From Escherichia phage JLBYU08: a DNA stretch of 64,000 bases. Position 1 is the first letter of the stretch. Every line of letters begins with the position of its first letter. Made by a program: the position numbers and the translations under genes. The notes beneath the pieces are model-generated. The model was not told the origin of the DNA and searched no databases. It saw only the letters and a list, made by a program, of their open reading frames with translations. Location of the stretch: sequence record OK272482.1, one strand, 5' to 3'. Below, one piece after another: positions 4,971-59,121 of the stretch.

Positions 4971-5302
4971 TGACTAAAAATTCTGTAGATAGTGCAATTA
5001 TGGAAGCTGTTTTTGAGGATGATCATACAACAGGGACACTTAAAACAAAAAATACATTCGTTGTTGCCACAGGTATGTGGCGGTTGTATGAAGATGACAC
5101 CATTTCATACATCCTGTACACTGATGATTACGCAGATGACCGTGTATGGTCTGCTGTTTTAAAAGAGGATTGTGAACTGATTGAGGGCGAGCGGTTATGC
5201 ATGTTCACCAGTGTGGAAACAGATGTTAAGCTTTGCTCTCTCGTCTTGTTCAAAGATAAGGCTTATGCTCCTGATGAAGGAGAGGAGGATGAGGAAGTAT
5301 GA
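4967..5302 (+). CDS. hypothetical acidic protein
   Basis: 111 aa; ATGA overlap with upstream gene; tail DEGEEDEEV. Confidence 0.5.
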   Translation: MMTKNSVDSAIMEAVFEDDHTTGTLKTKNTFVVATGMWRLYEDDTISYILYTDDYADDRVWSAVLKEDCELIEGERLCMFTSVETDVKLCSLVLFKDKAYAPDEGEEDEEV

Positions 5303-5928
5303 GAGAGCGTCTATTATCCATAGACCAGTCGTTGACACACACAGCTTGCGTTGTATGGGACGATGGAAAGCCTGTTCATAAGGTTGTGTTACGAACTCAA
5401 AGCTCATCTGCAAAAGAGAAGAAACCAGGGACGGTTTCTTTTGCAACAGCTGCTGAGCGTATTGACTGGATCTGCAAACAGGTCAGATATTATATCCACA
5501 CGCACGGAGTTGACACCGTGGTTATGGAAGGACTTTCCTTCGGATCTCGCGGGGATGCCACACGTGAACTGGCTGGGTTGTTTTACGGTCTCGAAGTTAT
5601 GCTTTGGGATGCTTTAGCTGATTGTGAAAATGACGGCCTGTTTAAGGTTCACACAGTGACACCAACAACTGCCAAAAAGTTTGCTCGTAGTCATCTTCCT
5701 GAAGAACTTGCTTTTGAGGAGAAGAAAAAGCTTGACAAAAAGACAGGTAAAGAGCATACTGTGAAGAAACCTGTTACGATGGATAAAAAGTTGATGGTTA
5801 AGGCCTGCGAAGTATCTGAACCAGGGTTCCTAGATGGGATCAATTTGGTACAAGGTAAGGCCGATCTCGCAGATGCTTATTGGATAGGCAGGGCGCATCT
5901 GGAGGGGTTATCGCAAAGCGTAAAATAA
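5299..5928 (+). CDS. RuvC-like Holliday junction resolvase
   Basis: 209 aa; N-terminal LLSIDQS (catalytic Asp) and VVMEGLSFGS (Glu), as in phage RuvC-family resolvases. Confidence 0.65.
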   Translation: MRERLLSIDQSLTHTACVVWDDGKPVHKVVLRTQSSSAKEKKPGTVSFATAAERIDWICKQVRYYIHTHGVDTVVMEGLSFGSRGDATRELAGLFYGLEVMLWDALADCENDGLFKVHTVTPTTAKKFARSHLPEELAFEEKKKLDKKTGKEHTVKKPVTMDKKLMVKACEVSEPGFLDGINLVQGKADLADAYWIGRAHLEGLSQSVK

Positions 5929-6485
5929 GAAAGAAAGCTGTCAAAGCCCCCGTTCATAGCGGGTGGCTAAAAGATTCTAAGGACATAGCCAACTTTCGAA
6001 AAGAATTGTCAGAGGAGCAGGATGGTCTTGATCCGATCTTGTGCGAGCCACTTCGTAAGCCTTGTTTAGATCATGATCATCTGACTGGTCGTTGCAGGGG
6101 TGTTTTGTCTCAGTGCACTAATACCTTTGAGGGGTATGTGCTTAAATACTGGATGAAATACTGTAACGAGTATACAGATTGCAGTTTATCAGAGGCGTTG
6201 CGCCGGATGGCTGACTATCTGGAGAAAGACTACAGCGACTTCCCGCTCCACAAAAACTACAGAGATGATATGACAAAGTTCTTGAGGAGATGCTCTAAAG
6301 CTACGATTATTGCACGAGCAGAATCAGATCTCAATCTTGTCATTAATCCAGAGTGCACCAAGCATGAGGCTATTGAGTCCTACATGCAGGAGTTTATAAA
6401 GAAAACTGAGGAGAGAGATTTCTATGGGGATGAAAAAGGTATTCAATCCTTGCGACTCAGTCCTGATCAGGATGAAATACCGTAA
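5880..6485 (+). CDS. endonuclease VII-family (HNH-like) nuclease
   Basis: CLDHDHLTGRCRGVLSQCTN matches the EndoVII DH-x-H-x-TG-x-x-RG-x-LC-x-x-CN signature. Start is uncertain: TTG 5880 has no clear RBS, and there is no in-frame ATG after the ruvC stop. Confidence 0.6.
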   Translation: MDRQGASGGVIAKRKIRKKAVKAPVHSGWLKDSKDIANFRKELSEEQDGLDPILCEPLRKPCLDHDHLTGRCRGVLSQCTNTFEGYVLKYWMKYCNEYTDCSLSEALRRMADYLEKDYSDFPLHKNYRDDMTKFLRRCSKATIIARAESDLNLVINPECTKHEAIESYMQEFIKKTEERDFYGDEKGIQSLRLSPDQDEIP

Positions 6486-6645
6486 CTGGAAAGGTGTTGT
6501 TGCAGATCGCTGCGTTACTGAGCCTAATTTATGGTTTGGCTCTACAGAGTATCATAAAGAAGAGCAGTGGTTGATGCATGCCTTTGATGTAGACAAGGGC
6601 GAATATCGTGACTTCGCTTTAAAAGACATTCTTCAGTTTTACTAA
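6424..6645 (+). CDS. hypothetical protein
   Basis: 73 aa; RBS GAGGAGAGAG 6 nt upstream; overlaps 3' end of upstream gene. Confidence 0.45.
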   Translation: MGMKKVFNPCDSVLIRMKYRNWKGVVADRCVTEPNLWFGSTEYHKEEQWLMHAFDVDKGEYRDFALKDILQFY

Positions 6646-6657
6646 GGAATTTTGACG

Positions 6658-7641
6658 ATGATGACAAAGTTAACTCTTGAGCAAATTTTAACACTAAAGC
6701 AGCAGGGATACACTAATAGACAAATTGCTCGTGAATTTTTAGGCCGTGAGTCACGTGAGAGTTGGATCCGACTACAGCTTAAACGTGCACAAGAGAATAT
6801 GTCAGAGATTGTAGGAGAAGCAACGGAGCGCTTCCTTGAAGAACACAAAGGAGCTAAAGTTTGGGTGTATGATACAGAAACATCACCAACAAACGGCTGG
6901 TTCTTTGGGCACTATAAGACCAACATTCAAACCTGCGGTATTGAAATTATGCCCTATATGCTAACTTTCGCAGGTAAGTGGTTAGACAGTCCTAGTGTGG
7001 TTGACTGCGCTCTTCCCGATTACAAAATGTGGGATGAGGATATTCACAATGACCTCGAATTGATTCAGGACTTGTGGTATTATCTGGATAAATGTGATGT
7101 CGCAGTAGCCCACAATTCAGGTTTTGACTGTGGGTGGGCAAACCAACGATTTGCATTTCACGGGTTGCCTCCAACAAGCCCATACAAAGAGGTTGACACC
7201 CTTAAAATGATCAAGAAGGCATTCCGTTTGAATGCAAACACTTTGGAGTATGCATGCAAATACTTCCAACTTGCCAGACAGAAACTGATTGACCACACAT
7301 TTGAAATGTGGATCAAGTGTGTTCATGGTGATCTTGAGGCGTTTAAACAGATGCGGGAGTACAATGTTGGTGATATCCTATCTCTGGAAGGCCTGTATTT
7401 GCTGGCACGCCCGTTTGCTAAGCAGCACCCCAACATGTCATTGTACTACCAGGATGAGGAGCCAAAAGTTCGTTGCCCACGCTGCGGTGGAGAACACCTT
7501 CACGAGGAAGAAGCTTTGGCGTATACTCAACTGAGTGCATTTAAAACATATCGCTGCGAAGGTTGTGGATCTGTTGTTCGTGACCGTAACAACATCCGTA
7601 CCAGAGAAGAAATGAAAAACACCCTGATTAAGATAATCTAA
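6658..7641 (+). CDS. DEDD-type 3'-5' exonuclease with N-terminal HTH and C-terminal zinc ribbon
   Basis: VWVYDTETSP and VAHNSGFD exonuclease motifs; N-terminal LKQQGYTNRQIAREFLG (HTH-like); C-terminal CPRCGG...CEGCGS. Confidence 0.6.
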   Translation: MMTKLTLEQILTLKQQGYTNRQIAREFLGRESRESWIRLQLKRAQENMSEIVGEATERFLEEHKGAKVWVYDTETSPTNGWFFGHYKTNIQTCGIEIMPYMLTFAGKWLDSPSVVDCALPDYKMWDEDIHNDLELIQDLWYYLDKCDVAVAHNSGFDCGWANQRFAFHGLPPTSPYKEVDTLKMIKKAFRLNANTLEYACKYFQLARQKLIDHTFEMWIKCVHGDLEAFKQMREYNVGDILSLEGLYLLARPFAKQHPNMSLYYQDEEPKVRCPRCGGEHLHEEEALAYTQLSAFKTYRCEGCGSVVRDRNNIRTREEMKNTLIKII

Positions 7642-32102: not shown

Positions 32103-32408
32103 ATGGCTAAATCTAAAGTTGAACTGTTCACCTCTCTTCCTTCTGACACTGCAGAACGTGATCGCCTTCGCAAAACAATCGAAGAACTGGTGGAACTCCA
32201 ACTTCAGATTAAAGATCTGAAAGATGCCATCAAGGATATCATTCTTGTTGAGAAGCAGGATCATCTGTATTCTCCTAAATTCATCAAATCTCTGGTGGCT
32301 ACCGAGTTCGATATTCGATATGAGGCTGAAAAACGTCGAGCTAAAATCGAAGAAGAGGTTGAGCACATGTCCGAGGCAGACATTCTGTTCAAACGCTCTG
32401 TAGAATAA
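32103..32408 (+). CDS. hypothetical coiled-coil protein
   Basis: 101 aa; RBS AAGGAG; followed by strong terminator 32417-32440. Confidence 0.55.
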   Translation: MAKSKVELFTSLPSDTAERDRLRKTIEELVELQLQIKDLKDAIKDIILVEKQDHLYSPKFIKSLVATEFDIRYEAEKRRAKIEEEVEHMSEADILFKRSVE

Positions 32409-34007: not shown

Positions 34008-34134
34008 CACACAATTAGCTGCCCGGCTAAAGTGCTGGAAGCACCTATAACACATCTTTCAACTAAATTTCCTACAACCACAATCACTTACCTCCCACAC
34101 ATGACTGTTTGCTTGTTTAGTGAGCAGTCATGCC

Positions 34135-34162
34135 TTGACATTCTTGCCTATCCTGATAAAAT
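34135..34162 (+). promoter_or_regulatory. sigma70-type promoter firing into ORF-free DNA
   Basis: TTGACA-N16-TAAAAT. No credible ORF for >2 kb downstream. Confidence 0.45.
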
Positions 34163-34357
34163 TAAGTTCTTCTCTTTTCTTTTACCGAGTAATTCGGGTT
34201 TTCTGTTCTCTTCGGTTTGAAGGGGTATGGAGATACACCTGAGTGAACAGGGTGAACAACCGAACATTTGGCTATGGCATTAGCATGGCGAAGCGGACGG
34301 GTGACGAAAGAGGGGCCGGAGGACACCAGTCACTGCCATATGATATATGGGTGATAA

Positions 34358-34900
34358 CCTGAAGAGTCTGAATAAGTGTTTAAGTACCAGTCAGAGGAAA
34401 AGGTGAATGGTAGCCGAAGGGGGAGGGGGGGTTTCTTGTATCTTTAATTTGTATATTATGTATACACTTGTAAACCAATCTCATTTGAATTTGTTTACCA
34501 CACAAAGGGGATAGAGACAAATATTATCTATTAAACTTGAATTATTTATAGAAAATACCACAACACCACTTAAGTCTTTGATTTTACACACAAATCCTAC
34601 AGATATTCACCCTCCATATTTAACATACCTGTAACATATTCCATACCCTACCTGTCTGATCAATTCACCCAACCACACCCTCCATATTTTCCCTGTCTGT
34701 ACCACCCCTGCCCCGCCGGGAGTCCCGTCATATCTGGCTTTCCAGCAAATATCACACCCACAAATATCATTGCCTGAAGAGGGTTTCATCCCATAATACC
34801 TGCCTTACCTGAAGAGCGCTTCATATACCCCGTAAATTTTTTTAATTGACCTCCTCCCCGCCGCCGGAGGGGTCGGCTTTTCCCACACAGGCCTGAAGAG
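34358..34900 (+). repeat. four dispersed copies of CCTGAAGAG
   Basis: At 34358, 34773, 34808, 34892. The two central copies continue as CCTGAAGAG-sGs-TTCAT, 35 bp apart. Confidence 0.6.
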
Positions 34901-35143
34901 TCAGCCAGAAATATTTGAACAGGTCCAGTTATACCACGATTTTGACCTGACCGACAGGGAGGCCCGAAGGGTCTAGCTTTCAGCTAGAGTCCTTGCAGGA
35001 CCTACAGGAGCGCTGCCAGGCGGACGAAATGGGAATACTTCTCATTCTTATAACAATTCTCAAATATCAAGGCAGTGAGGCAAATTAATAGGTGAGGCCG
35101 TTCACATAGTGGCACAACATTTGCAATCTATTTTGTGTGGGGG

Positions 35144-35180
35144 AATGAGAATACATATCATTGTGAGAACCATTATCATT
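35144..35180 (+). promoter_or_regulatory. two tandem TGAGAA-N4-TATCATT boxes (Fur-box-like)
   Basis: aATGAGAATacaTATCATTgTGAGAACcatTATCATTa. Confidence 0.45.
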
Positions 35181-35532
35181 ACGGGCAATTTAACATAATA
35201 CCCATTATACGCACCACTGACGATACATACAGGGATTGATAACATGGGTTACTGTTTACGCATATAACAATTATATTTCTTACTATTTGTGTGGGATATA
35301 GTTAGCAGCCGATAGATTAGATATTGACCTGCGGACTTCTGACCGTCTAGACGTCTAAACGCCCACACAACAAGGCTTATACATACATCGCTGAATGTAA
35401 ACAGGGCCGCAAAAATGCTACCATACCAGATTGTAAATTTTTCATGCAGCACTTGACAAAGAGGAGAAAAACTTGTCTGACACAATATGACATACTGGGC
35501 ACATTAAACACACTTTAGACTTAATTGACATG

Positions 35533-35674
35533 CCTGACTGTTTACGCTGTCACTATTCACGCTATTACTATTCACTCCCTTTACTGTTCACGCTCTTACT
35601 GTTTACATGCTTAATGGTTTACATGCTTAATATACTGCATGTCTAATAGTTTACATAGCTAACTATTTATACAG
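35533..35674 (+). repeat. array of nine contiguous degenerate 14-17-bp units (core ACTGTTTAC / ACTATTCAC)
   Basis: Units start at 35533, 35547, 35562, 35577, 35593, 35610, 35626, 35642, 35659. The core recurs at 35251, 36058 and inverted at 35397. Confidence 0.7.
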
Positions 35675-35683
35675 ATATGATAA

Positions 35684-35908
35684 GCCATGCCATTCGTTTG
35701 CATGTTAATAATTTATGACATAATATAAAAGCAGGGCAACTATTAGCAGATCTATAGTTGCCTTGCTTGTCATGTCATGATTAACTAAATACAAGGCAAC
35801 TATGATCTGATTAATAGTTTGCAGACAAACTATCACGGGGGTGATGGTTACTGCTTTTATATTATGTCGCGACTCCGTCGCGCCATGCCATTCGTTTGCA
35901 TAGTTGCC
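35684..35908 (+). repeat. nested repeat structure (20-bp direct repeat, 16-bp inverted repeat, GGCAACTAT sites)
   Basis: GCCATGCCATTCGTTTGCAT at 35684 and 35882. CATAATATAAAAGCAG 35719-35734 versus CTGCTTTTATATTATG 35851-35866. GGCAACTAT at 35735 and 35795, inverted at 35754 and 35900. Confidence 0.75.
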
Positions 35909-36511
35909 TTATTGTTACAGATAAAATAATTGTATTGTTAATTATTTCTTATCTTTCTCTTAGTCATCTAATGATTCCAGTTAGTATAGTAATGTACAGT
36001 AAACATTAGACGACTAAAGATTTATATGCTTATAATAACTTACAGTGACAATTTCGGACTGTTTACGAAAAATGTTGACACCTGAGCCGATTTATGTTAT
36101 GCAGTTTACACGAATAATTATTTTATGCAGGTATTGACTATTCCGTTATTCCATGGTTGGAATAAATACTTAGCAGTCTATAGAATGGTGACGCTACGTG
36201 AATTCTGGAATTTAGTGGCTATAGTTATACTCGATTTTTCACGTAGAACACGCTTTTGTTAGTGTGTAAGTGTATGACTTATAAAGATTTTTAGTTGTTG
36301 ACAAGATACTGAAGATATGCATCAGGTTAAATTTTGTGCAATAGCGGCATTACGTGCAATTTTGGGAGAGAAAACGGGCAAAAATGGCCTTGCTACCACA
36401 CAATGAAAAATTATGCAATAGTTATTTTCCATGTATATTTGTACAGTGTGTGGGATTAATGGCTAGTCAATTATTCCACTTGCCAGGTAGGGCCGTTTAT
36501 GGTAGGAGAAG

Positions 36512-36542
36512 AGCAGACAAAAAGAAAGGGGCCTAAGCCCCT
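36512..36542 (-). terminator. rho-independent terminator closing the island
   Basis: Minus strand AGGGGC-TTAG-GCCCCT followed by TTCTTTTTGT, 20 nt after stop of 36562 gene. Confidence 0.7.
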
Positions 36543-36561
36543 TGATAATTCAGTTAAAAAA

Positions 36562-36981
36562 TTATAATGATTCGTATATTTCAAAAATCCGATTTGCCAG
36601 GTCGTTACGGTAGCGGAATTTTTCCTCACGTTTGATCATAAGATCTTTATAGCCGTACTCTTTAAGCACTTCATTAACTTTATGGCGGCATACTTTCATA
36701 TTATCCTGCGCGTCACCAATAAATCTGTTGCTATGGTGCATGGCTTTAATTTCTTCTTCCAGGACCAGGGCAACTATGCGGACCGGATCAAGCTGATAGG
36801 CGGTAACATCCATGCGGCATTGTAGACGGCTTTTAACGTCCGCCACCGGATATACTGCAACCTCTTCCCCGTCAACATTGACAATAATTAGTTTACCATC
36901 GATTTCGAATCCTTTCGCCGCCGGACCGTGACAAAAAGCGTTATCAAAGCTATATGCCGGATTATCAGATTTAATGTTCAT
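36562..36981 (-). CDS. hypothetical protein (island)
   Basis: 139 aa; own promoter TTGACA-N17-TATATT at ~37032-37060 (minus); followed by terminator 36512-36542. Confidence 0.55.
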   Translation of the reverse strand: MNIKSDNPAYSFDNAFCHGPAAKGFEIDGKLIIVNVDGEEVAVYPVADVKSRLQCRMDVTAYQLDPVRIVALVLEEEIKAMHHSNRFIGDAQDNMKVCRHKVNEVLKEYGYKDLMIKREEKFRYRNDLANRIFEIYESL

Positions 36982-56368: not shown

Positions 56369-56697
56369 CATCTGTTCAGGTAGGTCGTTAAGCTACCCCG
56401 CACCATTACGTGCATAGCCATACAGTTTCCTGTATGGATCGGACTACCTCACTGCCTTGGTAACAAGGCACCTCCCATTTCGACCGCACTTGCTGGCCTA
56501 CTCTACTCGCTTCTTCACACCAACCTATGTTGGAGCTATGCTTTCGATAGTCTCTGAACGTTCATCCTCTCGGATGCTTCGCTGCGGATTAGCATATTGA
56601 GCTTTTACCATACTCAGGTGTAAAAGTCAACTTAGCTTTCCCGTCAATTAAAGAGGTTATTCGACATAGATCACTCTATGAAGCCACAATGTTATTT
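56369..56697 (-). ncRNA. group I self-splicing intron (ORF-less) in DNA polymerase gene
   Basis: Minus-strand RNA contains P AAUUGACGGGAAAGCU, Q AAUCCGCAGC, R GUUCAGAGACUAUCG, S GAGGUAGUCCG in order. 5' splice site follows U, with exon CCAU pairing to intron GUGG. Intron ends in G. CAUU can pair with exon-2 GAUG (P10). Confidence 0.8.
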
Positions 56698-59121
56698 ATG
56701 GTAATAGATAATACGACGGACACCTTCATCGTACCACCCACGCTTCACCATTTGGTGGTGCATGAGTATCCCAACTAAGTCACACAACGATGCACCACCA
56801 TTTTGTTGGTATGCATTAAGTAAAGAGTGTTTAGATCGGGTCCAGATGGCATGACCATCAAAAGAGTATATAAACTTCTTACCAGTTGCTTCCCAGAATT
56901 TCTCCAGATCCTCTTTACGCCCCTTAAGACCAGGGTTGGCATCCCAAAGCGCATCGATTACCCTTTGCCCCAACTCTGGAGAGATATCCAGCATGTCTGC
57001 AACTTTATCTTTTTGTGCCCCGTACATAACCCCATACGTGATAGGTTTACCGTCGTTACGGGACACCTCTCTGCCTGCTACTTTTGTATATGCCTCAGCA
57101 TTGTTTTGGTGTGCGTCCCCGTTACTTACAACATCATAATACAAGCCGTTGTCGAACTCAAAGGCACCCCAAGCCCCGATAAGCTGCTCTAAGTTGGACC
57201 CGTCAATACCGATCTCAAAGTATCCTGGAGGAACACCCCACAGACTACGCATCTCTTTACCCATAACCACTTTAGGAGATGGTTTAGGCATGTTTGCACA
57301 AATACTGTGTTTCTGTCGGGAAGTGTTTGTTAGCCCAGAACTTTTAGCAGGAAGCTTATGGTCAATCTTCAAACGTGGGTGATTAAGAAGACCAGTATCA
57401 ACCTTATCCTCCTTGATTGGATCAAGGACCGATCTGCGGTTTCGCAATGATAACCACAAGACGATATCTTTAGCCATCTCTCCGTTCAATTTTTCAAGAT
57501 TTGGGCATAGGTGTCCAAACGTATCTTTCAGCTGCGGAGAAGTAATAAGTGCTCTGGCTTTTCTACGTATTTTCCCGAATACTTCCTTTTTAATCCTTTC
57601 GGAGTTAGGAAAGCTTCGGAACTTGTGCACGGTTGTCTGAAACTTAGCATCAGTTTTGTTCCAGAAGTTGATAATCAGGTCACAATACTCTGACTCTAAA
57701 AGCTCGTCCATGTATGCATATACTCGTGCATCAACATCTGCATCAGGTAGAGCTTTCTTCTTGCTGTCTTTAGTTACATCCTTAGTTCTCCACATTGTCG
57801 GAAGCCAACCAGCACTGATCAGGTATCGCTTAATGTCGTCCTGATTGCTGATTTTCATAGGTATCTTGCAGTCCGGCATTCGCTTCTGCTGTAGATCACT
57901 TATTGCCTGATCCATCAGCTCTTTAGGTAAAGGTTGTGGTGTGGAAGTGCCCTTAATATAGCCTCTCAAGAAATCAGCCATCTTATCAGGGTCTTTGCAG
58001 CCCATCTCTTCACACCATTTTATCCCCATCTTGCTGACATCTCCTGTGGAGGTAAATGCTCGCTTAGGCGGGGCTTTGAACTCCAAAGCACTCATGTCCA
58101 CAGGATAGCCAAGCTTATCTTTTAACCATTTCCAACCATTGTTGGAGATTGTCCCATCTTGGTTAAACGGCTTTTCAGGGAACTTGGGCCGCTGAGACAT
58201 TGACAGCTCTTTTAAAGGAAGTTGAGGTTCAACACGATCAGCGATTTCTTTCATCCACGCATCGCAACGGTCACGTAAAGCAATAGCTCCATCTATGTCG
58301 AAGTATACACCCTGACGGGCCTGCAGCTCCATCAGGAAGTGCTGCAGCATGCCTCGACGTAGTGCGTTCTTCCAGGTGATCTTCTTGAACCCTTTCGGCT
58401 TCTCTTTGGCTGGATCGTACATAAAGTTCTGCATGTCAGATTTGCCGTAGAATACACCTTTTGATTCCGCTACCAGCTCTTTCCAGAGCAGCTCCTGGAT
58501 GATAACGTCCTCGAATACACGATCCACATACTTCCACAACGGAAGATCGCGCCAGTCATCAATTTGAACTTTCTGGTTACCAAGGGCGTAGCCCCATGCC
58601 ATAAGGCCGTGAGGACCAACAGGCTGCATTTTCTTAGTAACCGGGTTGAATACAGAGTCCGGACAACCTTTTGGTAAAGGGCGATCAGGCCACAAGATTC
58701 GGCTCATCGCCAACGTATCAAACAGGTTAACCTGGTGGTCGTTGATAGTCCCCATACATTTAGGATCACGGAACATATCAAAATGAATACCGGATAATCT
58801 CTCCATCAGCATAAAGTCATAACTGTAGCAGTTATGGCAGTTCAAAGCTGTTGGTGACCAGTCGGAATTGCCTGTAAGCCAACCCTCCAACTCTGAAAAA
58901 TCTGCTATGCGAACTTCAAAATCTTTATAAAAAGTTTTCTTTGCCAGAATAAAGTTCTTAGCCTTCTCTATATCCTCTTCGGAGTAGTGTGTGCGGTCAT
59001 TTAGAGGAAGGAACAGCATAAAACGGTTCTTATTCAGCTCTTTAAACAGGCCGCAGTGATAATAAAGATCTGGGTCTTCCAGCAAACCGGATGACTCAAA
59101 ATCGAACGACCACATGCTCAT
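56698..59121 (-). CDS. DNA polymerase (family A) with 3'-5' exonuclease domain, exon 1
   Basis: 808 codons up to ...RRIIYYH; Exo I FDFESSG at N-terminus. The unspliced reading adds K* from intron sequence. Confidence 0.85.

What the first reader, a model, noticed from the sequence alone, without database searches (positions are those of the whole stretch)
35240..36110. Iteron-like array: nine contiguous ~16-bp units plus dispersed ACTGTTTAC sites (candidate origin or centromere-like site)
From 35533 to 35674 the sequence parses into nine head-to-tail units of 14-17 bp. Each has a core related to ACTGTTTAC (gACTGTTTACg, cACTATTCACg, tACTATTCACt, tACTGTTCACg, tACTGTTTACa, aATGGTTTACa, tATACTGCAt, aATAGTTTACa, aACTATTTATa). 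Exact or near-exact cores recur outside the array at 35251-35259 and 36058-36066, and in inverted orientation at 35397-35404. Phased arrays of a degenerate 9-mer inside AT-rich ORF-free DNA, between two convergent transcription units, are the classic signature of iteron-type replication origins or partition/centromere sites bound by a dedicated protein. No such initiator is identifiable in this window.
Basis: partly seen in the sequence, partly recalled or inferred. Interest (0 to 1): 0.6.

Follow-up and report, generated by a model that had tools for sequence, protein, structure and literature searches.

The report
Phased repeat array beside phage terminal repeat
The repeat array is real and conserved, but it lies directly against the 459-bp terminal repeat that marks the physical end of this rV5-like phage chromosome, so it more likely belongs to the DNA end-processing/packaging signal (as in phage T7) than to a free-standing replication origin, which is still not excluded.

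Summary
Observation confirmed. Nine head-to-tail 15/16-bp units (35537-35677) share the core A-Y-W-R-T-T-Y-A-C. All four exact ACTGTTTAC copies in 64 kb lie within 35251-36066. The window is an rV5-like E. coli myovirus (Vequintavirus), and the array sits in the gene-free stretch that the rV5 paper only labelled 'non-coding'.

In 19 of 20 related genomes examined the 15/16-bp phase and the core are conserved. Spacers carry no information, and copy number runs from 2 to about 12.

The key new fact is the context. Two independent labs found 458/459-bp direct terminal repeats (DTR) in Vequintavirus virions. In the Gotham and HdK5 records that repeat maps to window 35019-35477. The array, and a ~10-bp TGACAY repeat before it, begin exactly at the right DTR boundary. 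Core copies also lie inside the DTR, and the other flank carries its own small variable repeat. T7 has the same layout (SRL/SRR arrays), checked here on the T7 sequence.

Best reading (about 0.4): a phased protein-binding platform of the concatemer-junction processing/terminase-recognition signal.

Main rival (about 0.3): an iteron origin. The least stable 100-mer of the whole window (35908-36007) lies beside the array.

A partition site is unsupported, and no binding protein was identified. Novelty: a new member of a known kind. Interest is moderate.

The parts
35537..35677 (+). Nine head-to-tail units of 15/16 bp, all in the same orientation. Core A-Y-W-R-T-T-Y-A-C-R-Y, followed by a spacer of about 5 bp under no constraint.
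   Evidence: TRF; unit parse; PWM hits at 15/16-bp steps; per-position information 0.26-1.53 bits at positions 1-11 and 0.05-0.12 bits at positions 12-15 over 92 distinct units.
35478..35536 (+). Short TGACAY/GACAY repeats with a period of about 10 bp, starting at the first base after the terminal repeat. The last 16 bp (35521-35536, TTAATTGACATGCCTG) are a degenerate extra unit of the main array.
   Evidence: Sequence; 2-5 GACAY copies in the array-bearing relatives (V18 has 1) and variable length; the Pr121LW record ends exactly at this TGACA junction.
35019..35477 (.). Direct terminal repeat (DTR) of the virion chromosome. It is present once in the window, as in a concatemer junction or a collapsed assembly.
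   Evidence: Gotham repeat_region 1-459 and 136567-137025 are identical and align to 35019-35477. In HdK5 the first 459 nt equal the last 459 nt, with the same boundaries. Literature: PMC7471380 (459 bp) and PMC6563267 (458 bp). Mean pairwise identity is 93.6% across 17 genomes.
35251..35259 (+). Dispersed exact core ACTGTTTAC inside the DTR.
   Evidence: PWM 16.1. GTTTAC is kept in 18 of 19 genomes, with three alleles at the low-information third core position.
35397..35405 (-). Dispersed inverted core (CCTGTTTAC on the minus strand) inside the DTR, 72 bp from its right boundary.
   Evidence: GTAAAC is invariant in 19 genomes while the 5 nt upstream vary.
35999..36007 (-). Dispersed inverted core (AATGTTTAC on the minus strand) at the right edge of the AT-rich stretch.
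   Evidence: invariant in 20 genomes.
36058..36066 (+). Dispersed exact core ACTGTTTAC, 9 nt upstream of a conserved TTGACA. A weaker core lies at 36101.
   Evidence: GTTTAC is invariant in 20 genomes while the 5 nt upstream are highly variable.
34955..35018 (+). Left flank of the DTR. Relatives carry 1-3 copies of C(A/T)GGAG(T/C)GCT at about a 16-17 bp period. The window has 2 copies (34955-34961 and 35005-35010), split by a 49-bp hairpin insert.
   Evidence: The 60 nt left of the boundary are only 62.8% identical between genomes.
35684..35901 (.). Facultative 198-bp module: exact 20-bp direct repeats (35684-35703 and 35882-35901) bracketing a perfect 18-bp inverted repeat and two GGCAACTAT-N10-ATAGTTGCC hairpins that resemble terminators on both strands.
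   Evidence: Murica annotates a terminator here. FV3 lacks the module and keeps a single copy of the direct repeat.
35908..36007 (.). AT-rich stretch that is the least stable 100-mer of the whole 64-kb window. It is a candidate unwinding or bending region.
   Evidence: Nearest-neighbour dG is -107.9 kcal/mol against a mean of -132.9 (sd 6.0). In FV3 it follows the array by about 26 bp.
35430..35459 (-). Leftward sigma-70-like promoter (TTGTCA-18-TACAAT) inside the DTR, ending 19 bp from the right boundary. It is a consensus match only.
   Evidence: The sequence is conserved in all relatives.

Best explanation
The array is a cis-acting, phased protein-binding platform belonging to the terminal region of a chromosome with fixed ends. 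In replicating concatemers each junction reads: short ACAGGAG repeats, then the 459-bp DTR, then TGACAY repeats, then 2-12 GTTTAC units at 15/16-bp steps.

I propose that an oligomeric phage DNA-binding protein loads cooperatively on the GTTTAC units and on the cores inside the DTR at 35251 and 35397. The most likely candidate is the terminase small subunit or an accessory packaging factor. The bound protein would position the terminase nuclease for the sequence-specific cut at the invariant ...AAAACTTGTC|TGACA boundary, 43-59 bp away. It could also organise duplication of the DTR during maturation. A period of about 15.5 bp places successive sites on alternating faces of the helix and every second site (31 bp) on the same face, which fits DNA wrapped on or sandwiched by an oligomer.

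Shown: the array, its conservation pattern, its uniqueness in the genome, and its position against the DTR boundary.
Inferred: that a protein binds it, that this protein is part of the packaging machinery, and that binding directs the cut.
For: (1) Fixed ends. Two independent labs report 458/459-bp terminal repeats in Vequintavirus (PMC6563267; PMC7471380). In both the Gotham and HdK5 records the ends are exact 459-bp repeats with identical boundaries, mapping to window 35019-35477. A third record (Pr121LW) ends exactly at the TGACA junction.

(2) The right boundary sequence is invariant in 17 genomes, and the repeats begin at its first base.

(3) The core motif flanks that boundary on both sides: 35251 (+) and 35397 (-) inside the DTR, and the array outside it.

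(4) Phase and core are conserved while spacers and copy number are free. GTTTAC is invariant at 35397, 35999 and 36058, and in all but one genome at 35251.

(5) The array is the only cluster of three or more PWM hits within 120 bp in a composite whole genome, apart from a minor trio at 36058-36101.

(6) The opposite DTR flank has its own small variable repeat.

(7) T7 has the same architecture, checked on its sequence: terminal repeat at 1-160, about 12 CCTAAAG-type units mostly 13 bp apart at 175-340, the same motif inside the repeat at 16, 40 and 59, and repeats before the right terminal repeat.

(9) From established knowledge: lambda cosB R sites, the P1 pac hexamers and SPP1 pacL/pacR are repeated terminase-binding motifs placed beside the cut site.
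Against: - No binding protein was identified. The terminase genes lie outside the window, and none of the ten flanking proteins tested shows a convincing DNA-binding domain.
- The function of the T7 SRL/SRR arrays is, to my knowledge, not firmly established, so the analogy is architectural rather than mechanistic.
- Copy number varies 2-12, and the distance from the cut to the first strong unit varies 22-92 bp. That is loose for a positioning device.
- V18 is deposited without the array. If that assembly is right, the array is dispensable, which an essential packaging signal should not be.
- Two papers call rV5-like phages circularly permuted or headful on PhageTerm evidence (PMC8407724, PMC13211470).
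- The strongest duplex-instability feature of the window lies beside the array, as expected for an origin.
Confidence: 0.4

Rival explanations
1. Iteron-type replication origin placed next to the left chromosome end. A phage-encoded or host initiator would oligomerise on the GTTTAC units and on the flanking inverted cores. It would melt the adjacent AT-rich stretch (35908-36007) and load the gp4-like primase/helicase.
For: - Phased direct repeats with a constrained core and free spacers.
- The least stable 100-mer of the 64-kb window lies 230 bp from the array, and only about 26 bp from it in FV3, which lacks the hairpin module.
- That AT-rich stretch is bracketed by the array on one side and by cores at 35999 (-), 36058 (+) and 36101 (+) on the other.
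- The cluster is unique in the genome.
- The phage has its own PolA, gp4-like primase/helicase and RecD-like helicase.
- The rV5 authors could not locate the origin by skew analysis (PMC3606486), so the origin is still unassigned.
- T7 places a secondary origin (phiOL, nt 405) just inside its SRL array (position; its role as an origin is from my own knowledge). The two functions can therefore sit side by side.
- An origin can be dispensable in recombination-proficient phages, which would accommodate V18.
Against: - No initiator gene is recognisable next to the array.
- Units are 15/16 bp (1.5 helical turns) rather than the 17-22 bp units at about two turns typical of plasmid and lambdoid iterons.
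- Copy number varies six-fold between genomes that are more than 90% identical in the flanks.
- The array begins exactly at the DTR boundary in every genome, which an origin has no need to do.
- Resemblance to DnaA boxes is weak: the best-conserved unit positions do not coincide with the stringent DnaA-box positions (my comparison with TTATNCACA).
- Related genera that share the flanking gene and a comparable gene-free gap have no such array.
Confidence: 0.3
2. Binding sites for a transcription regulator, or RNA-polymerase-directed sites, acting on the end of the chromosome that enters the cell. The GTTTAC(A) core resembles a -35 hexamer (TTTACA against TTGACA). One dispersed site sits 9 nt upstream of a conserved TTGACA. 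The array would then regulate or titrate transcription around the terminus.
For: - The core at 36058 lies just upstream of a conserved TTGACA with an A-rich spacer.
- Several TTGACA boxes and a leftward promoter-like site lie within a few hundred bp.
- T7 also has a leftward host promoter, A0, inside its SRL array.
Against: - The promoter scan calls no promoter inside the array.
- No -10 element stands at the correct distance from any unit (read directly).
- No gene is positioned to be controlled by nine tandem sites.
- The regulator reading does not explain why the array starts at the DTR boundary.
Confidence: 0.1
3. A functionless slippage-prone minisatellite in relaxed non-coding DNA at the chromosome end. 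Unequal exchange between DTR-proximal repeats during concatemer recombination would keep it expanding and contracting.
For: - Extreme length and copy-number variation: the segment is 42.7% identical against 93.6% for the DTR.
- Other variable short repeats and indels bounded by direct repeats occur in the same region.
- V18 lacks the array.
Against: - Neutral arrays homogenise whole units, yet here the core is constrained and the spacer is not.
- The 15/16-bp phase is kept in every array-bearing genome examined.
- GTTTAC is invariant or nearly so at isolated dispersed sites whose neighbouring bases vary.
- The array is present in every matching phage record except the two that represent V18 (119 records).
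Confidence: 0.12
4. Partition (centromere-like) site, or part of a structured non-coding RNA.
For: Only the generic resemblance of phased repeats to parS/parC-type centromeres. For an RNA, only that terminator-like hairpins lie downstream.
Against: - This is a virulent myovirus with no partition-type domain detected in the ten flanking proteins tested.
- No Rfam match even at E<=1.
- The array strand folds no better than shuffled sequence, z = +0.38.
- No promoter is positioned to transcribe it.
Confidence: 0.03

Closest known systems
Phage T7 SRL/SRR short-repeat arrays flanking the 160-bp terminal repeat (Dunn and Studier 1983, from my own knowledge; sequence checked here)
   Same: Both are linear genomes with a short exact DTR. 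Both have a phased array of about a dozen short direct repeats beginning within tens of bp inside the left DTR. Both have extra copies of the same motif inside the DTR and repeats on the other flank as well. Both have a leftward host-type promoter near the boundary.
   Different: There is no sequence homology. The T7 unit is a 7-8-bp CCTAAAG core at a period of mostly 13 bp. Here the core is 9-11 bp at 15/16 bp, and a second ~10-bp TGACAY repeat precedes it. The host phage is a 137-kb myovirus with no phage RNA polymerase. Here the two flanks carry different motifs. The function of the T7 arrays is itself not firmly established.
Terminase recognition sites built of repeated motifs beside the cut site: lambda cosB (R1-R3), P1 pac hexamers, SPP1 pacL/pacR, T3 pacB (from my own knowledge)
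   Same: Repeated short motifs lie within about 200 bp of a sequence-specific terminase cut, on one or both sides of it, and serve as a loading platform for an oligomeric small-subunit protein.
   Different: Those sites have 2-7 motif copies in fixed number and mixed orientation. Here there are 2-12 tandem direct copies with variable number. Binding by a terminase subunit has not been shown here.
Iteron-type origins: lambda ori, P1 oriR, plasmid iterons, T4 oriE iterons, P4 ori type I iterons TGTTCACC (from my own knowledge)
   Same: Tandem direct repeats with a conserved core, an adjacent easily melted AT-rich stretch, and extra inverted copies nearby. The core of some units (TGTTCAC) resembles the P4 octamer by coincidence.
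   Different: No cognate initiator gene is present. The unit and period are shorter (15/16 bp). Copy number is hypervariable between near-identical genomes. The array is positioned exactly at the DTR boundary. The phage primase/helicase is gp4-like, not P4 alpha-like.

Membership tests
Terminal-repeat-flanking short-repeat array (T7 SRL/SRR type) | Virion chromosome has fixed ends with a short exact direct terminal repeat | tested here: met
   In Gotham and HdK5 the record ends are exact 459-bp repeats with identical boundaries. Reported in PMC7471380 and PMC6563267. Caveat: this was shown for close relatives and not for the window's own phage, and two PhageTerm reports disagree.
Terminal-repeat-flanking short-repeat array (T7 SRL/SRR type) | Array lies in unique DNA within tens of bp of the DTR boundary | tested here: met
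   The TGACAY repeats start at the first base after the boundary (35478). The first strong GTTTAC unit is 59 bp in, and 22-92 bp in relatives.
Terminal-repeat-flanking short-repeat array (T7 SRL/SRR type) | Copies of the same motif also occur inside the terminal repeat | tested here: met
   Cores at 35251 (+) and 35397 (-) lie inside 35019-35477. In T7 the motif occurs at nt 16, 40 and 59 of its repeat.
Terminal-repeat-flanking short-repeat array (T7 SRL/SRR type) | Repeats on both flanks of the terminal repeat | tested here: inconclusive
   The left flank has 1-3 copies of C(A/T)GGAG(T/C)GCT at about 16-17 bp. It is a different motif and far fewer copies than on the right flank.
Terminal-repeat-flanking short-repeat array (T7 SRL/SRR type) | Sequence homology to the T7-group arrays | tested here: not met
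   Different core, period and phage family. The resemblance is an analogy of architecture only.
Terminase recognition site (cosB/pac type) | Repeated motifs adjacent to the terminase cut site | tested here: met
   The motif flanks the 35477/35478 boundary on both sides. That the boundary is a terminase cut is inferred from its being a virion end.
Terminase recognition site (cosB/pac type) | Bound by the small terminase subunit and required for packaging | not testable with these tools
   This needs EMSA or footprinting and a packaging or transduction assay. The array-less V18 record would argue against a strict requirement, if the assembly is correct.
Iteron-type replication origin | Several direct repeats of a binding site in helical phase | tested here: inconclusive
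   There are 9 units (2-12 in relatives), but the period is 15/16 bp, which is 1.5 turns. Classical iterons are 17-22 bp at about two turns.
Iteron-type replication origin | Adjacent AT-rich DNA-unwinding element | tested here: met
   35908-36007 is the least stable 100-mer of the 64-kb window. It is 230 bp from the array here and about 26 bp from it in FV3.
Iteron-type replication origin | Cognate initiator (Rep/O-type) gene identifiable, usually in cis | tested here: not met
   Ten flanking proteins gave no Pfam hit above cut-off and only PHROGs of unknown function, apart from one generic 'transcriptional regulator'. The annotated replication genes are PolA, primase/helicase and RecD-like helicase only.
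Iteron-type replication origin | Replication initiates there | not testable with these tools
   This needs marker-frequency analysis or an origin-cloning assay.
Partition centromere (parS/parC type) | Adjacent ParA/ParB-type (or ParM/ParR-type) genes and an episomal lifestyle | tested here: not met
   No partition-type domain was detected in the ten flanking proteins tested. Vequintavirus phages are described as lytic (PMC3606486, PMC13211470).

The most novel reading that the evidence does not exclude
The array is a dual-purpose terminus organiser. A single phage protein would bind the GTTTAC units both to fire an origin at the adjacent AT-rich stretch and to mark the concatemer junction for terminase. 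This would physically couple replication initiation to end maturation in a large DTR myovirus. Rapid expansion and contraction of the unit number would tune that coupling, or would help the phage escape host factors that target it.
Probability: 0.1. Interest if true: 0.7.

Novelty: new member of a known kind. Interest (0 to 1): 0.4.

Why it matters
rV5-like phages are widely isolated and are used in E. coli O157 typing, biocontrol and therapy candidates. Even so, neither their replication origin nor their packaging signal has been defined, and the literature disagrees on whether their DNA is circularly permuted or has fixed ends.

Placing a conserved, genome-unique, phased binding-site array exactly at the boundary of the 459-bp terminal repeat has three uses:
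- It gives a concrete cis element to test for terminase recognition or origin function.
- It explains why so many deposited genomes start in this 'non-coding' stretch.
- It warns that assemblies and PhageTerm calls for this genus may misreport the termini.

It also bears on engineering. Where packaging-competent or replication-competent fragments lie determines how these phages can be rebooted or used for transduction.

Tried and rejected
- Collection scan of IMG/VR with GTTTAC-N9-10-GTTTAC-N9-10-GTTYAC. It returned more than 120 unrelated 15-bp tandem repeats, mostly on giant-virus contigs. The pattern is too unspecific and nothing useful came of it.
- Syntenic gaps in other genera that share the flanking gene (phAPEC8, nieznany, A73, W70). 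A gene-free or gene-poor gap of about 1.5-2 kb is conserved, but TRF finds no comparable array. The array is therefore specific to Vequintavirus in the strict sense, and no covariation with a protein could be exploited.
- Phage-specific promoter motif. The PHIRE elements annotated in phAPEC8 (GTAGGGCGGCAATGGTGCCG) are unrelated to the core.
- DnaA boxes. Some units reach 7-8 of 9 matches to TTATNCACA, for example TTATCCACG in one metagenomic relative. But the best-conserved unit positions do not match the stringent DnaA-box positions, and the 15/16-bp spacing is unlike the 11-bp arrays of oriC. I judged this unconvincing.
- P4 type I iterons (TGTTCACC). The resemblance is confined to some units, and the phage helicase/primase is gp4-like, not P4 alpha-like.
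- RNA explanations. No Rfam match at gathering threshold or at E<=1. The array strand folds no better than shuffles.
- tRNAs. None in the window.
- Flanking proteins. Pfam and PHROGs give no DNA-binding assignment apart from one generic regulator at 32103-32405. The 'FtsK' label in the isim record and the 'Rel homology' note in Murica were not reproduced by Pfam.
- Literature searches for rV5/Vequintavirus with origin, iteron, non-coding region or transcriptome. No description of the array was found. The rV5 paper only marks the stretch 'non-coding'.
- A search for T7 'pacB' mostly matched 'PacBio'.
Full report
**What the window is.** The 1.8 kb around the finding matches 119 phage records at 80-99% identity. 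All are rV5-like E. coli myoviruses of the genus Vequintavirus, apart from a set of mislabelled 'Campylobacter phage' records that the database itself files under Vequintavirus. The finding lies in a gene-free stretch of about 2.3 kb (window about 34220-36562). In rV5 this stretch runs from the end of ORF163 (+) to the end of ORF164 (-) and carries no annotated gene. The rV5 genome paper draws it as a grey box labelled 'non-coding'. The same paper states that skew analysis, undertaken to find the origin, only tracked changes in transcription direction (PMC3606486).

TRF finds two adjoining arrays at 35537-35603 (period 15) and 35601-35656 (period 16). Read directly, there are nine head-to-tail units starting at 35537, 35552, 35567, 35583, 35598, 35614, 35630, 35646 and 35662. 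The seventh is degenerate. All four exact ACTGTTTAC copies in the 64 kb lie at 35251, 35537, 35598 and 36058. ACTRTTYAC occurs 9 times against 2.3 expected, 7 of them here. An unbiased k-mer count makes ACTGTTTAC the top enriched 9-mer of the gene-free region, with 4 copies there and none elsewhere. I add a tenth, weaker unit at 35521-35536, a separate ~10-bp TGACAY repeat at 35478-35536, and further cores at 35999 (-) and 36101 (+).

**Conservation pattern.** I collected the homologous region from 19 relatives.
- The flanks are well conserved: 93.6% mean pairwise identity for 35019-35477, and 90.5% for the 620 bp to the right of the second 20-bp repeat.
- The array segment is only 42.7% identical, and its length ranges from 128 to 237 bp in the array-bearing genomes.
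- Every genome that has the array keeps the 15/16-bp step. Observed spacings are 15 or 16 bp, or 30-32 bp where one degenerate unit is skipped.
- The number of strong units ranges from 2 (ECML-10) to 11 (rV5), and a lenient parse gives about 12 for JES2013.
- Over 92 distinct units, positions 1-11 carry 0.26-1.53 bits each and positions 12-15 carry 0.05-0.12 bits.
- At the dispersed sites the GTTTAC hexamer is invariant at 35397, 35999 and 36058, and in all but one genome at 35251. Immediately adjacent bases vary freely.

This is the signature of selection on a phased set of protein-binding sites, not of a neutral satellite. The array strand has no unusual folding (z = +0.38). Rfam finds nothing even at E<=1.

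**The context that changes the reading.** Several GenBank records start within this stretch, so I looked into genome termini.
- Korf et al. report 458-bp terminal redundancies for HdK5 and EdH4 (PMC6563267).
- The Gotham record carries identical repeat_regions at 1-459 and 136567-137025.
- In the HdK5 record the first 459 nt equal the last 459 nt.
- Both repeats start GGCGGACG... and end ...GAGGAGAAAAACTTGTC, and they align to window 35019-35477.
- A third, independent record (Pr121LW) ends exactly at the following TGACA.
- The right boundary sequence is identical in all 17 genomes compared.

The 'convergence point' of the circular map is therefore the junction of the two physical chromosome ends. 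The TGACAY repeats begin at the first base inside the left DTR, and the GTTTAC array follows 43-59 bp further in. Two of the 'dispersed' cores (35251 and 35397) lie inside the DTR. Two other papers call rV5-like phages circularly permuted or headful on PhageTerm evidence (PMC8407724, PMC13211470). I give more weight to the two concordant exact boundaries, but the conflict is real.

**Both flanks carry repeats.** Directly left of the DTR, relatives have 1-3 copies of C(A/T)GGAG(T/C)GCT about 16-17 bp apart. The window has two copies separated by a 49-bp hairpin insert. That flank is only 62.8% identical between genomes.

**Uniqueness.** I scanned a PWM built from 64 good units over a composite whole genome: Gotham 1-103500 and 133500-137025, with the window covering the remaining part. 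Clusters of three or more hits within 120 bp occur only at the array, plus a minor trio at 36058-36101.

**Comparison with T7, checked on sequence.** The T7 terminal repeat is nt 1-160. From 175 to about 340 there are about a dozen CCTAAAG-type units, mostly 13 bp apart. The same motif occurs inside the repeat at nt 16, 40 and 59, and related repeats precede the right terminal repeat. A leftward host promoter (A0, nt 224) lies in the array, and phiOL (nt 405) follows it. The architecture here is the same. The sequences, the period and the phage family are not. [quoted passage not shown] From general knowledge, terminase recognition sites (lambda cosB, P1 pac, SPP1 pacL/pacR) are typically repeated motifs beside the cut.

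**Evidence that keeps the origin reading alive.** The least stable 100-mer of the whole window is 35908-36007 (dG -107.9 against a mean of -132.9, sd 6.0). It is separated from the array by a 198-bp module of hairpins bounded by exact 20-bp direct repeats. FV3 lacks that module and keeps one copy of the repeat, so in FV3 the array and the AT-rich stretch are about 26 bp apart. The AT-rich stretch is bracketed by the array on one side and by cores at 35999 (-), 36058 (+) and 36101 (+) on the other. The phage encodes PolA (interrupted by a group I intron), a gp4-like primase/helicase and a RecD-like helicase. No initiator is recognisable. Ten proteins flanking the region give no Pfam hit above cut-off, and only PHROGs of unknown function apart from one generic regulator.

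**Dispensability.** One phage, V18 (two records), has no array. Its TGACAY segment runs into an A12 tract and 36 bp of unrelated sequence before the hairpin module. None of the other matching records shares that arrangement. V18 is also the shortest genome at 129 kb. It could be an assembly artefact or a viable deletion, and I could not decide which.

**Other genera.** The gene next to the region (the ORF164 homologue) also occurs in Phapecoctavirus and in the A73/W70 group. In each it is followed by a gene-poor gap of about 1.5-2 kb, but with no comparable array. In phAPEC8 and nieznany the genes after the gap continue on the same strand, so the gap is not simply a convergence point.

**Verdict.** The array is real, constrained, unique in the genome and specific to Vequintavirus.
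- Most likely (about 0.4): a phased protein-binding platform of the concatemer-junction/terminal-repeat processing signal, analogous to the T7 SRL/SRR arrays and to repeated terminase-binding sites.
- Main rival (about 0.3): an iteron-plus-unwinding-element origin placed at the chromosome end. The two are not mutually exclusive.
- Less likely: regulatory sites (about 0.1) or a neutral minisatellite (about 0.12).
- Unsupported: a partition site or an RNA.

I found no description of the array in the searchable literature. One GenBank record (isim) tags it 'repeat_region' without comment. It is a new member of a known kind of element, of moderate interest. It gives a defined target for settling how rV5-like phages mature and replicate their DNA.

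Noticed in passing
window 35684-35901: A 198-bp module is bounded by exact 20-bp direct repeats (GCCATGCCATTCGTTTGCAT). It contains a perfect 18-bp inverted repeat (35717-35734 / 35851-35868) and two GGCAACTAT-N10-ATAGTTGCC hairpins that look like terminators on both strands. Phage FV3 lacks the module and keeps a single repeat copy, like an empty insertion site or a deletion between the direct repeats.
   Followed up: partly
window 34955-35018: The left flank of the terminal repeat carries 1-3 copies of C(A/T)GGAG(T/C)GCT at about 16-17 bp, depending on the phage. The window and ev156 have an extra 49-bp hairpin insert between two copies.
   Followed up: partly
window 35908-36007: This is the least stable 100-mer of the whole 64-kb window (dG -107.9 against a mean of -132.9, sd 6.0). 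It is 80% AT over 35917-35976.
   Followed up: partly
window 34094-36454: TGTGTGGG / CCCACACA occurs 10 times in the window against 1.9 expected. Six copies lie in the gene-free region, three of them inside the terminal repeat (35134, 35288, 35362). Meaning unknown.
   Followed up: no
window 35478-35536 (minus strand): The TGACAC repeats read GTGTCA on the minus strand. That contains the T7 gp4 primase recognition sequence 5'-GTGTC-3' (from my own knowledge). The phage encodes a gp4-like primase/helicase. A cluster of primase sites at the DTR boundary is possible but untested.
   Followed up: no
window 35430-35459 (minus strand): A conserved leftward sigma-70-like promoter (TTGTCA-18-TACAAT) lies inside the terminal repeat, 19 bp from its right boundary. 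At the left chromosome end it would give a run-off transcript of about 400 nt. T7 likewise has a leftward promoter, A0, in its SRL array.
   Followed up: no
window 56419-56707 (minus strand): A group I intron (Rfam RF00028, 72.5 bits) lies in the DNA polymerase gene region. In the relative Mangalyan the PolA gene is split there around an HNH homing endonuclease gene.
   Followed up: no
L024 (phage V18, NC_041937) 1760-1835: V18 has no GTTTAC array. An A12 run and 36 bp of unrelated sequence replace the array and the first 20-bp repeat. It is the only phage among the 119 matching records with this arrangement, and it has the shortest genome (129 kb). It may be an assembly artefact or a viable deletion.
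   Followed up: partly
L016 (phage I29, ON286975) about 900-1250: The I29 record contains a long perfect palindrome and a duplicated copy of the DTR-proximal sequence just left of the terminal repeat. This is possibly an assembler artefact caused by the terminal repeat.
   Followed up: no
window 34770-34824 (minus strand): Two near-identical short starts, ATGAAACCCTCTTCAGGCAA and ATGAAGCGCTCTTCAGGTAA, lie 35 bp apart. CCTGAAGAG occurs 4 times in the gene-free region. One of the starts begins the 60-aa ORF that Murica annotates as a gene. Whether these are real small genes is unclear.
   Followed up: no
literature and records for the genus: Published packaging calls for rV5-like phages conflict. 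PMC8407724 and PMC13211470 report circularly permuted/headful packaging by PhageTerm. PMC6563267 and PMC7471380 report fixed ends with a 458/459-bp DTR. Many deposited records start at arbitrary points, and several start exactly at a DTR boundary.
   Followed up: partly
L009 (phAPEC8) 5454-6964; L011 (nieznany) 5222-6904: Phapecoctavirus genomes keep a gene-free gap of 1.5-1.7 kb after the ORF164 homologue, even though the genes on both sides are on the same strand. The gap has no GTTTAC array, and its function is unknown.
   Followed up: partly
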